NCBI GenBank assembly: GCA_951406725.2
Contig: OX597816.1
Coordinates: 86,738,001-86,802,000 of the forward strand
DNA: 64,000 nt
Direction of reading: 5' to 3'
From: Octopus vulgaris
Taxonomy: Eukaryota
In this document: positions 13,401-47,045 of the stretch, in pieces
Layout of the letters: each line of letters opens with the position of its first letter
How positions within the stretch are numbered: position 1 is the first letter of the stretch
The notes under the pieces: model-generated
What the model was told of the DNA's origin: nothing
The model's input: the letters and a program-made list of their open reading frames with translations, nothing else
Databases searched by the model: none
Translations under genes and position numbers: made by a program

Positions 13401-13826
13401 TATGACATCAGGACAGTATTCAAGAATAATACAACACTTCGTGAATATCTCCTCCGAGTAAAACCATCAATAGAAAAGAATATGACCAACGACTGCGTGT
13501 ACTGCATTCCATGCAGCTGTGGTAGGTTATAGAAAGACGAAACATGCTGCCCCCTCAAAATAAGGGTAGACGAACTTCGCAAAGCTGCGACGCGAGGTGA
13601 TATTGATGTATCGGGTATAGTTGATAAGGCAAAGAAAAATAGAGACCACCACTCCTTGTGGGATGAAGTTAAAATAATAGACAGAGAACACCACTGGAAA
13701 ATAGGAAAACTAAAAGAAGCAGTACATATACTAGGACCTAACAACCTCCTAAGCAGACCGAGTGCAGATTTGAGCAGCATATGGGAACCGGTATTAAGGA
13801 AGGATAGGAAAATATTAGATTTATAA
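13401..13826 (+). mobile_element. Penelope-like retroelement 3' fragment (GIY-YIG endonuclease pseudogene)
   Basis: Plus-frame YDIRTVFKNNTTLREYLLRVKP...CVYCIPCSCGRL*KDETCCPLKIRVDELRK...WDEVKIIDREHHWKIGKLKEAVHI...SIWEPVL. The listed minus ORF 13310-13855 is its antisense shadow. Confidence 0.9.
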
Positions 13827-13859
13827 GCCCTAAAATTCACTCCATAATAGCCCACCGAT

Positions 13860-13935
13860 ATATGGCGTTGTGGTTAAGAGCGCGGGCTAATAACCCCAAG
13901 AATCCGAGTTCGATTCCAGGCAGTGACCTGAAAAA
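13860..13935 (+). mobile_element. tRNA-like Pol III module directly 3' of the Penelope ORF
   Basis: TGGCGTTGTGGTTAAGAGCGCGGGCTAATAACCCCAAGAATCCGAGTTCGATTCCAGGCAGTGACCTGAA with A and B boxes. Closely similar to 43985-44056. Confidence 0.8.
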
Positions 13936-13984
13936 TAGTAGGAACGCATGTGCATCTTCATACGCTGAATCATGATTTTGACAC

Positions 13985-14340
13985 AAATACTGCGGCCATG
14001 CTAGAGCACTGCCTGGAAGTGTTTTAGTCGAATGTTTCGACCCCAGGGCTTATATATTAAGCCAATTATTATTTTAACCGATCGATTCTTTTGTCGATCC
14101 GCTAAGTTACGGATACGTAAATACACCAACAGCGGTTGTCGGGCGTTGATGGAGGACAAATACAAAGACACACATCTGTATATATATATATGACGGACTA
14201 CTTTCAGTTTCCATTTACCAAATCCACTCACAAGATTTTGGTCGGCCCGAGTCTATAGTGGAAGACACTCGTCAAGCAGTGAGATTAAACCTGGAACAAT
14301 GTGAATGGGAAGCACGCTTCTTGCCACACAGCCACACCTG
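13985..14340 (-). mobile_element. tRNA-derived SINE, near full length
   Basis: Plus strand TTTCAGTTTCC...CCAAATCCACTCACAAG...GTCGGCCCGAG.CTATAGT.GAAGACAC...CTTCTTGCCACACAGCCAC. LINE-like tail at 13990-14012. Confidence 0.85.
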
Positions 14341-44745: not shown

Positions 44746-45510
44746 CAGGGTATGTAAGGTATTTGGGGACATACCTTTTTTAGGTCATTATTGCATTTTT
44801 GCAAACTCTGTATAATCATTGTTTCAGAAAATAATAATGGCAGACACTCAGCTTGCTCTAGAAATGAAGAGGCATGCAGTTATTGTAGTTTTAAAGGCTG
44901 AGCATAGCGATTTAGAATTATCTCGATTTCTAAAAGTTGCCAGATCTTTCGTCTACAAAATTTGTAAGGAGCTAGAGACTGAAGATGGAAACGTATCACC
45001 AGTATTAAAGCATAAAAAGCATTCTAAACGCTCTGAAATTATCAGAAACTTTGAATTTATCCAGCAAGTTAAACAGACCATTCATTACAACCCCAAAAAG
45101 TATAAGAAGGAACACTAAGAAATGTTGTCCACGAAGACATCAGATATAAATCTTATATGATGGGGAAAGGCCAGTTTGTCAGGAAAGGCAAAAGAATATC
45201 ATTACATCAGATCTAAAAGGCTCTTAAAGAACTGAAGAAACTGAAAACTCCAGCAGATTTGATTTGGTTTTACTCAAATGAGAAAAACTTCGACCAAGAT
45301 CAAAATTTAACAGAAGAAATGACAGATGGTGATGTGCAGATCCTTCTGAAGTTCCAAATGTTATGCATACAAAATTTCCTGAAACTGTTATGGTTGTCAG
45401 CAATGAAGGACATGTGATGCCTCCTTACTTCTTTCCACAATGCCTTAGAGTTAACTCTGTCGCCTACGTTGTGGTCCTGGAAATAACTGTTAAGCCCTGG
45501 ATAGATATAT
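44746..45510 (+). mobile_element. 3'-truncated IS630-Tc1-mariner transposon, DD37D/maT-like
   Basis: TA+CAGGG start. ATG 44837 MADTQLALEMKRHAVIV...ELSRFLKVARSFVYK; WFYSNEKNFDQDQ; HTKFPETVMVVSNEGHVMPPYFFPQCLRVNSVAYVVVLEITVKPWI. Confidence 0.8.
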
Positions 45511-45822
45511 GTAACTATTCCTTGAGATCAAGAAACTCTGAGTGAAGACGTAAGCCAAAGTGTTTTAAAAATATATGACACTAATACACACACACTCACA
45601 CATGCACACACGCACACGCAAACACACACACATACACACAGCTGTGCACATGCATACACGCGTGCACATGTTGACATACATAAATTATACACATATCGTT
45701 ATGTGTATTATACACATGCGTGTGCGTGTGTGTGTGAGTGTGTGTGTATTAGTTTCATATATTTTTAAAACACTTTGGCTTACGTCTTCACTCAGAGTTT
45801 CTCGATCTCAATCAATAGTTAC
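45511..45822. repeat. ~105-bp inverted repeat with (CA)n/(TG)n inner ends
   Basis: GTAACTATT..TTGAGATCAAGAAACTCTGAGTGAAGACGTAAGCCAAAGTGTTTTAAAAATATATGA.ACTAATACAC and its reverse complement ending at 45822. Confidence 0.92.
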
Positions 45823-46802
45823 ACGAAGAAAGGGAACGAGAAACACGAATTAGCGGAGCTCACAGTGACTTAGCTTTAAATGACTATTATTATTCCACGC
45901 AACTTAACAGTATTGACTACATATTTTGCTTAATTACATTTCACACTTGTGTGAAACTACCCTACCAATATATAATACACATACACACACACACATACAC
46001 ACACACACACACACACACACATACACACACACACATACACACATATATATATATATATACACACACACATATATATATATATACACACATATATATATAC
46101 AGACATATATATATATGTATATATATATGTATATATATATATATACACATATATATATATATATGCACACATATATACATGTATGTTTCTGTGTGTGTGT
46201 ATTAATGCATGTTAGCGTATATATATATATTCAGGGAGAGAGAGAGAAAGAGAGAGAAGTGTACTTATGTACTATCTCTTGCAAAATAGTTTTGGCAATC
46301 AATACTTCAGTTTATAATTGATGATATGCAAGTGAAAATAAAATTTGACAGGTAATTAAATTGAAAAAGTGCAGATATGAGTAAAGCTGGCGAGTAAAAT
46401 CAGTTTGGTAGATATAAAAATCCTAAAGTAAGGCATGTCAAAGAGAGAGCAAGAGAGGGAGAGGGAAAGATTACAGAATGTGAAATTAGATGAACGAGAT
46501 ACAAGACTTAATATCTGTTCATACACACACACACACATACAAACACTACGAATATACATACATACGTGTGTGTGATTGTGTATGTTGCGTGTGTGTCTGT
46601 GTGCGTGTGTGTGAAAACGATATAGAAGGCGCATGATCTTGTTCTAGGAATTTGTGATCACGACCATAAAGCAGTCTCTTCTATTTCTGTCACGGACGGT
46701 GCGATGTATGCATAAGTAAGGTTTTATTTCAGGATGATAATCAGTACCAACCACCTGATACTGCAGCCTTTTCTCTTGATATATGTCAATGCTTCCTTGA
46801 TT

Positions 46803-46844
46803 CGCAGCTTTTCGGCTGATTTACTCTCCAGCCTTCATCAGGTG
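46803..46844 (-). ncRNA. Degenerate hammerhead, same family as 44255-44302
   Basis: CAC CTGATGA A GGCTG GAGAGTAAAT CAGCC GAAA AGCT GCG. Confidence 0.6.
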
Positions 46845-47045
46845 TCTTGGTAGAATTTCGAACCCAACCCTGGGTTCTCATTCCTAAGGTATTTTGTGAC
46901 TCACGTGGTAAAAATTCTGGAGAGAAATACGAATTCACTTGTCTATATAAATGTGGATATGCTGATTAGCTTTTATATGTTCCGATGACGCTTGGTAGGA
47001 AATATAGGAGGTAAGTTTTCCTAGCATTTCTAGATTTATCGGAAT

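What the first reader, a model, noticed from the sequence alone, without database searches (positions are those of the whole stretch)
13401..46895. Penelope ORF end -> tRNA-like Pol III module -> (AAT)n -> hammerhead: a chimera reconstructed from three loci
Seen: the GIY-YIG frame (13401-13826) is followed within ~35 bp by a tRNA-like A/B-box module (13860-13935). The same module at 43985-44056 continues through (AAT)n into a tail with a hammerhead (44255-44302). That tail recurs at 46800-46895 (minus). Inferred: either a Penelope family whose terminal repeat holds an internal Pol III promoter upstream of its ribozyme, or a SINE with a Penelope-derived ribozyme tail. A Penelope-mobilised SINE would be unusual, since known SINE partners are LINEs.
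Basis: partly seen in the sequence, partly recalled or inferred. Interest (0 to 1): 0.78.

Follow-up and report, generated by a model that had tools for sequence, protein, structure and literature searches.

The report
Penelope retrotransposon with tRNA-type promoter
This is a very common Penelope-type jumping gene whose terminal repeat carries a tRNA-derived head just before its ribozyme; most copies that contain the head begin exactly there and the element lacks polymerase III stop signals, so it likely uses RNA polymerase III, a promoter type otherwise known only from non-coding mobile elements.

Summary
The chimera is real. Genome searches show one 2,652-nt Penelope/Poseidon-type unit: an 835-aa RT + GIY-YIG ORF, a 29-nt link, a tRNA-Arg-like A/B-box head, (AAT)n, then a minimal type I hammerhead. 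The 'tail' is the start of the ORF itself, so head-to-tail is the pseudo-LTR. The head follows the ORF in 47 of 53 loci, and a hammerhead follows the head in 46 of 49. There are about 60,000 insertions, with two 3' ends about 30 nt apart (the Penelope signature). Of 33 arms sampled without regard to their 5' end, 28 stop within +17..-5 of the head start, against 8 of 30 in an equal window further upstream. The sense strand has no run of four T (2.9 expected, P about 0.03), whereas all 10 control sequences have such runs. Best reading: a Penelope that captured a polymerase III promoter and sheds SINE-like short copies from its own RNA, not a separate SINE. Polymerase III use is inferred; the available RNA reads were unstranded. 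All three window copies are decayed. My searches found no report of such an element, but Repbase and Dfam could not be checked. The scan had no related earlier finding.

The parts
13392..13826 (+). 3' end of the Penelope ORF (GIY-YIG endonuclease with CCHH motif), 5'-truncated and decayed (TAG at 13530-13532)
   Evidence: tblastn to family protein residues 691-835, 81% identity
13827..13855 (+). 29-nt link between stop codon and head; its last ~19 nt form an imperfect inverted repeat with the first 10 nt of the head
13856..13931 (+). tRNA-Arg-like head, copy 1 (A box 13863-13873, B box 13906-13917); the copy ends just after it
43980..44055 (+). tRNA-Arg-like head, copy 2; the copy begins at head base +1 (A box 43987-43997 mutated, B box 44030-44041 intact)
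44055..44205 (+). (AAT)n spacer, length variable between copies
44206..44255 (+). segment that holds the ORF start codon in the family consensus (head +116); the ATG is mutated in this copy
44256..44301 (+). minimal type I hammerhead lying inside the first codons of the ORF; core CTGATGA at 44261-44267, second core box mutated at 44291; predicted cut after 44296
   Evidence: architecture as in PMC4209133
44302..44352 (+). ORF 5' sequence up to the first of two family-wide 3' ends (about +244), the inferred reverse-transcription start
   Evidence: compare PMC11167929
46800..46895 (-). third, older fragment (+102 to about +181): start-codon segment and 5' half of the hammerhead, no head

Best explanation
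The three loci are decayed fragments of one Penelope/Poseidon-type retrotransposon whose pseudo-LTR begins with a tRNA-Arg-derived head that likely acts as an internal RNA polymerase III promoter. SHOWN: the unit is head, (AAT)n, start codon, hammerhead, 835-aa ORF, link, then the next head. Copies end at +244 or about +271. Most copies that contain the head start at it. The sense strand has no T4 run. INFERRED: in a partial-tandem source copy Pol III would start a few bases before the head and, meeting no terminator, read through the ORF and the second pseudo-LTR. The element's protein would nick both target strands and start reverse transcription about 130 and 155 nt into the ORF sequence, as shown for the anole Poseidon element. 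Starting at the first pseudo-LTR/ORF junction gives a ~250-nt copy that runs off the RNA 5' end at the head, where the cDNA often folds back or joins the second cDNA; these are the SINE-like majority. Starting at the second junction gives long, mostly 5'-truncated copies, and occasionally a full unit that again begins at the head with its promoter. The head probably came from an old tRNA-Arg SINE or a tRNA template switch. How the protein is translated is open: from uncleaved, uncapped RNA or from rare Pol II read-through.
For: Linkage: 47 of 53 ORF-end loci are followed by the head, and 46 of 49 head loci by the hammerhead. The consensus gives one open 835-aa frame starting inside the pseudo-LTR; direct tandems exist (L119; L132, L134, L136, L138, L147, L151). 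Penelope mechanism: 17 of 20 two-armed insertions have one arm ending at +232..244 and the other at +267..284. Promoter: A and B boxes match the recalled consensus at tRNA spacing while cloverleaf pairing is lost; the best match among 41 tRNA sequences is tRNA-Arg(TCG), 46 of 74 identical, z 10.3. 5' ends: 17 of 20 tail-selected arms and 11 of 13 random-sample arms that reach +20 end within +17..-5, against 8 of 30 and 3 of 30 in 25-nt windows at -96 and -462 (Fisher P 3e-6 and 1e-9). Fold-backs have the perfect inverted-head form in 10 cases and never the link form. The same fold-back at -7 is among the top loose ends in 3 of 3 RNA runs and 4 of 4 contig sets. T4 runs: 0 in the 2,652-nt unit; ORF 0 against 2.9 expected from synonymous shuffles (P 0.026-0.035) and 4.3-4.5 from base shuffles (P about 0.008). 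Two other Penelope families of this genome and 8 of 8 outside frames have 2-12 runs, near expectation.
Against: No direct evidence of Pol III use. The T4 test is one family, with P of only about 0.03 under the strictest null; G4 runs are also absent (0 against 1.0). A hairpin of -11.6 kcal/mol spans the head start and could stop or fold back the RT on any RNA. Of 6 copies that carry both a 5' head and ORF sequence, 4 extend upstream of that head (-61, -181, -300, -689), so templates that begin further upstream (multimers, circles or host read-through) also exist. An uncapped Pol III RNA is a poor message, and the only AUG before the conserved N-terminal block lies upstream of the ribozyme cut. 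Arms of one insertion are not independent, and the arm tallies were made by hand from alignment tables.
Confidence: 0.62

Rival explanations
1. Passive relic: a tRNA-derived SINE once landed in the 3' UTR of an ordinary Pol II-transcribed Penelope and was carried along. The 5'-end pile-up comes from the hairpin at the head start, and the lack of T4 runs is chance.
For: A predicted hairpin at -19..+10. The head resembles another SINE head of this genome (38 of 60 identical) and is followed by a microsatellite, as SINE ends often are. The Drosophila Penelope promoter is a TATA-less, LINE-like promoter with an intron (PMC2377424). The T4 P value is only about 0.03.
Against: Many ends lie at or beyond the loop rather than at the 3' base of the stem. 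No fold-back of the link form was found, against 10 of the perfect form. Only 2 of 6 copies stop at the same hairpin in the 5' pseudo-LTR, against 28 of 33 (P 0.018). The boxes are kept while tRNA pairing is lost. All 10 control sequences have T4 runs.
Confidence: 0.2
2. A separate non-autonomous SINE lineage (tRNA head plus Penelope ribozyme and RT-start region) is copied in trans by the Penelope protein and produces most short copies.
For: 9 of 22 random insertions start at the head and lack the ORF, and only 3 of 22 hold ORF-end or internal ORF sequence. Head-start copies are a little less diverged, and two positions differ in frequency (position 64: 26 of 79 against 11 of 69; position 223: 12 of 52 against 2 of 54). 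Precedents exist: Pol III-transcribed hammerhead SINE-like repeats in Schistosoma (PMC6765202) and Penelope-derived retrozymes (10.64898/2026.07.22.740005).
Against: The head is part of the autonomous unit. No fixed diagnostic base separates the classes (the samples were picked by similarity, which can bias frequencies). In the anole element the template needs the first 172 nt of the ORF (PMC11167929), more than the ~130-155 nt that short copies keep, so they may be poor templates.
Confidence: 0.12
3. The head start coincides with a Pol II start site of the pseudo-LTR, as in Drosophila Penelope, and the tRNA-like sequence has been reused as part of a Pol II promoter.
For: It explains the 5'-end pile-up and gives a capped message. 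Penelope has an internal promoter in its pseudo-LTR (PMC2377424).
Against: It does not explain the intact A/B boxes at tRNA spacing or the T4-free sense strand.
Confidence: 0.06

Closest known systems
Penelope/Poseidon clade of Penelope-like elements (e.g. anole Poseidon PAc, PMC11167929; D. virilis Penelope, PMC2377424)
   Same: Single ORF with RT and C-terminal GIY-YIG/CCHH and no linker zinc finger; pseudo-LTR from partial tandems; inverted 5' arms; minimal hammerhead overlapping the ORF start; two 3' ends 30-40 nt apart inside the ORF 5' region.
   Different: The pseudo-LTR starts with a tRNA-derived A/B-box head and (AAT)n, copy 5' ends pile up there, and the sense strand has no T4 run. 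The one mapped Penelope promoter is LINE-like, with an intron.
Schistosoma Sm-alpha/Sj-alpha SINE-like repeats (as reviewed in PMC6765202)
   Same: Pol III-type promoter followed by a hammerhead in a short repeat.
   Different: Those are non-coding tandem repeats with a canonical hammerhead. Here the promoter-plus-ribozyme module is the terminal repeat of a protein-coding element, and the ribozyme lies in its ORF.
TRIMp3 elements: Cassandra, Helenus, Ajax (PMC10886601)
   Same: A small-RNA-derived Pol III promoter inside the terminal repeat of a retrotransposon, proposed to arise by SINE insertion.
   Different: They are non-autonomous LTR elements, and the paper argues that their autonomous partners must use Pol II. 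Here the carrier is autonomous and of the Penelope class.
tRNA-derived SINEs (SINEBase definition, PMC3531059), including the octopus SINEs of Ohshima and Okada 1994 (seen only as a citation)
   Same: About 250-nt copies with a tRNA head and a sharp 5' end, in tens of thousands.
   Different: The partner is a Penelope element, not a LINE. The 3' end is the 5' region of the partner ORF, and the head is shared with the autonomous element.
Animal non-LTR retrozymes (PMC7761336; 10.64898/2026.07.22.740005)
   Same: Short hammerhead-bearing sequences tied to Penelope pseudo-LTRs.
   Different: Retrozymes are tandem arrays without a described tRNA head (0 hits for tRNA or Pol III in the preprint). 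These copies are single or head-to-head.

Membership tests
Penelope-like element, Penelope/Poseidon clade | single ORF with RT and C-terminal GIY-YIG endonuclease | tested here: met
   835-aa open consensus; RVT_1 hit on a real 569-aa copy, E 2.7e-6, just under the cut-off; the endonuclease was recognised by motifs, as Pfam gave no GIY-YIG hit on that copy
Penelope-like element, Penelope/Poseidon clade | CCHH motif in the endonuclease, no CX2-5CxxC linker finger | tested here: met
   against the description in PMC8557442
Penelope-like element, Penelope/Poseidon clade | pseudo-LTRs from partial tandems and inverted 5'-truncated arms | tested here: met
Penelope-like element, Penelope/Poseidon clade | 30-40-nt optional tail (two RT start sites) | tested here: met
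   17 of 20 two-armed insertions end once near +244 and once near +271
Penelope-like element, Penelope/Poseidon clade | minimal type I hammerhead in the pseudo-LTR | tested here: met
   consensus has both core boxes, a bulged base before a 5-bp stem II, a palindromic stem III and a 5-bp stem I; Rfam does not detect it; cleavage untested
Penelope-like element, Penelope/Poseidon clade | RT phylogeny with named clade members | not tested
   no named reference set among the tool results; clade assigned from domain features only
SINE (SINEBase definition) | short (<700 nt) with tRNA-derived head and A/B boxes | tested here: met
   short copies of about 250 nt plus repeat
SINE (SINEBase definition) | transcribed by Pol III from the internal promoter | tested here: inconclusive
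   indirect support only
SINE (SINEBase definition) | independent non-autonomous lineage | tested here: inconclusive
   no fixed diagnostic differences from ORF-linked copies
SINE (SINEBase definition) | reverse-transcribed by a partner LINE | tested here: not met
   ends and inverted arms carry the Penelope signature
non-LTR retrozyme | tandem arrays of hammerhead-bearing monomers | tested here: not met
   short copies are single or inverted pairs in the loci examined
functional tRNA gene | cloverleaf recognised by ARAGORN or Rfam | tested here: not met

The most novel reading that the evidence does not exclude
This is an autonomous, protein-coding retrotransposon whose whole 2.65-kb template RNA is made by RNA polymerase III from a captured tRNA promoter, with its coding sequence purged of Pol III terminators. 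One element then acts as both LINE-like master and SINE, and solves the Penelope problem of promoter loss by carrying the promoter inside its RNA.
Probability: 0.42. Interest if true: 0.86.

Novelty: new variant of a known kind. Interest (0 to 1): 0.66.

Why it matters
The definitions in use say that autonomous retrotransposons are Pol II transcripts and that SINEs depend on LINEs (PMC3531059, PMC10886601). A Penelope element with a working tRNA-type promoter would break both rules. It would give a concrete route from Penelope pseudo-LTRs to Pol III/hammerhead repeats such as those of Schistosoma. It would also make two open questions testable: where Penelope RNAs start, and why their ribozyme sits inside the ORF. 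Practically, about 25,000 head-start copies in this genome could be filed as SINEs although they belong to a Penelope element.

Tried and rejected
ARAGORN on the window found no tRNA. Rfam on the window gave only microsatellite-driven miRNA-type hits among the 150 of 206 rows shown, and on a young copy neither tRNA nor hammerhead. Single-strand folding of the hammerhead and head regions was no better than shuffles (z -1.5 to 0.1), as expected for a minimal ribozyme and decayed copies. No RNA holder was listed. Three raw RNA runs of one study had equal first-mate depth on both strands, so they look unstranded, and showed no place where many molecules begin or end; they say nothing on promoter, strand or ribozyme cutting. 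Viral contigs held no relative. A target-site-duplication survey of 19 loci gave one clear 15-nt case (L008) and otherwise chance-level matches. No DNA was available for the closest protein relatives (55-69% identity), so I could not see whether they carry a head or lack T4 runs. Covariation analysis was not attempted, because copies decay neutrally. Earlier findings of the scan: one unrelated hit. Chance SINE insertion at this one locus was rejected. A LINE-mobilised SINE was rejected.

Full report
OBSERVATION. The frame ending at 13826 is the C-terminal endonuclease of a Penelope-type protein, with one internal stop. A 76-nt head starts 29 nt later (13856) and recurs at 43980, followed there by (AAT)n and a hammerhead-like motif that recurs at 46800-46895 on the minus strand. 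Both window hammerheads are damaged. The genome is 2.8 Gb in 227 contigs; from recalled repeat content I take it to be an octopus, which no call established.

THE FAMILY. Searches of the own genome with the head, the ORF end and the tail gave 1134, 2861 and 1966 first-look candidates. After removing window copies and duplicated loci, the head follows the ORF end in 20 of 24 and 27 of 29 loci, and a hammerhead follows a head in 46 of 49. Walking upstream gave a 2,652-nt consensus unit with one open frame of 835 codons. The module is therefore the pseudo-LTR. A 55%-identical protein from elsewhere keeps the peptide encoded by the hammerhead (P0003). The endonuclease has the CCHH motif and no linker finger, as described for Penelope/Poseidon. 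In 100 evenly spaced 10-kb stretches of contigs 1-7 there were 22 insertions, 11 with the head and 9 starting at it, or about 62,000 (39,000-93,000), 31,000 and 25,000 genome-wide. Non-CpG divergence is 4-6% in similarity-picked samples. Contigs from 4 of 4 runs, coded as four organisms, bridge ORF end, link and head; one may be the source of this genome.

PENELOPE MECHANISM. Copies end near +244 or +271. In 17 of 20 two-armed insertions among 30 tail-selected loci, one arm ends at each site. This matches the two internal RT start sites, the cutting of both strands and the hammerhead overlapping the ORF start reported for anole Poseidon (PMC11167929, parts 1-2 of 4 read), and the tandem, inverted and tail structures in PMC8557442 (passages). 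The hammerhead has the minimal form of PMC4209133 (parts 1-2 of 4).

THE HEAD. It aligns without gaps to tRNA-Arg(TCG), the best of 41 tRNA sequences under 11 labels found in my loci (an incomplete set): 46 of 74 identical, z 10.3 against shuffles. A second SINE head of the genome is similarly close, 38 of 60. A and B boxes fit the recalled consensus, while acceptor and arm pairing is lost.

5' ENDS. Among arms chosen without regard to their 5' end, 17 of 20 (tail-selected, including the window copy) and 11 of 13 (random) that reach +20 stop within +17..-5. Only 6 of the 39 arms that pass the (AAT)n run stop between +74 and +21. Anchored at -96 and -462, 8 of 30 and 3 of 30 stop within 25 nt (the second set includes six copies of one duplicated locus). 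Fisher P is 3e-6 and 1e-9; arms of one insertion are not independent, and these tallies were made by hand. A hairpin spans the head start and is the main alternative cause. Against it, fold-backs were of the perfect inverted-head form in 10 cases and never of the link form, and only 2 of 6 copies stop at the 5' head when they carry ORF sequence behind it (P 0.018). The other 4 show that longer templates exist. The fold-back at -7 appears in 393, 306 and 309 RNA reads, against bin depths of about 1290, 870 and 830, and in all four contig sets. I read these as genomic copy structure, not as evidence of expression.

TERMINATORS. If Pol III must cross the unit, it should lack T4 runs. It has none on the sense strand, against 29-30 on the antisense strand. 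The ORF expectation is 2.9 by synonymous shuffle (P 0.026-0.035) and 4.3-4.5 by base shuffle (P about 0.008); four-T-in-five motifs number 4 against 9.6 (P 0.036, not independent); G4 is 0 against 1.0. Controls built the same way from this genome: family 2 has 4 runs against 5.5 expected in 2,190 nt, and family 3, of similar A-rich composition, has 5 against 4.1 in 1,302 nt and 11 in 2,509 nt. Eight outside frames have 2-12 runs, near expectation (the frame taken for L351 may not be the element's). Three of them are linker-less Poseidon types. This is suggestive and rests on a single family.

SEPARATE SINE? Comparing 79 ORF-linked with 69 head-start alignments gave no fixed difference, only frequency shifts at two positions. 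The simplest reading is that one RNA yields both classes, by RT starting at its first or its second pseudo-LTR/ORF junction. Some short sources cannot be excluded.

LITERATURE. Ten searches listed no paper describing a Penelope element with a tRNA-derived or Pol III promoter; two of them returned nothing. Read as passages: PMC7761336, PMC6765202, PMC6962438, PMC10886601, PMC2377424, PMC4758252, PMC3531059, PMC5786205 and PMC13282606 (plus a term search of its one supplement file). Of the retrozyme preprint I read part 1 of 5 and ran a term search; its supplements are closed. Ohshima and Okada 1994 and Ferbeyre 1998 were seen only as citations. Repbase, Dfam and published repeat libraries could not be checked, so the short form may already have a SINE name. 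The nearest precedents are non-coding: Schistosoma Pol III/hammerhead repeats, TRIMp3 elements and retrozymes.

VERDICT. A real, abundant, apparently old Penelope/Poseidon-type family with a tRNA-derived head in its pseudo-LTR. The structure is shown. Pol III promoter function is likely (about 0.6), and Pol III transcription of the whole coding unit is possible (about 0.4). New variant of a known kind; interest 0.66.

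Noticed in passing
family consensus, codons 1-101 (window equivalent 44226-44352): The only AUG before the conserved N-terminal block lies upstream of the ribozyme cut (next Met is residue 101), so cleavage would remove the start codon; relative P0003 keeps the ribozyme-encoded peptide.
   Followed up: partly
window 13985-14340 (-): An unrelated tRNA-headed repeat right after the first copy, with relatives at 2617-2737, 23454-23567 and 24643-24782; it resembles an octopus SINE (recalled).
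   Followed up: partly
window 44816-45500 (+): Decayed frame resembling a Tc1/mariner transposase (recalled resemblance), followed by an inverted repeat at about 45525-45590 / 45755-45820.
   Followed up: no
window 38031-39362 (-): Fragments of a LINE-type reverse transcriptase.
   Followed up: no
window 48007-48339 (+) and 48727-49032 (-): Long inverted duplication encoding the same peptide; a smaller inverted pair lies near 60450-60640.
   Followed up: no
L352-L381 and L382-L401: Two further Penelope-like families with linker zinc fingers (Neptune/Nematis type); one has a sense strand of 42% C. Used only as controls.
   Followed up: partly
G000:C1:130.86-130.90 Mb, C20:5.23 Mb, C3:160.03 Mb: Dense clusters of near-identical tRNA-Arg-like genes.
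   Followed up: no
L125, L129, L131, L144, L152: Copies made of the ORF 5' part followed directly by another tail piece, suggesting template jumps between the two RT start regions.
   Followed up: no
L159:1323-1398: ARAGORN calls a tRNA-Ser(ACT), an unusual anticodon, beside a tRNA-Cys gene.
   Followed up: no
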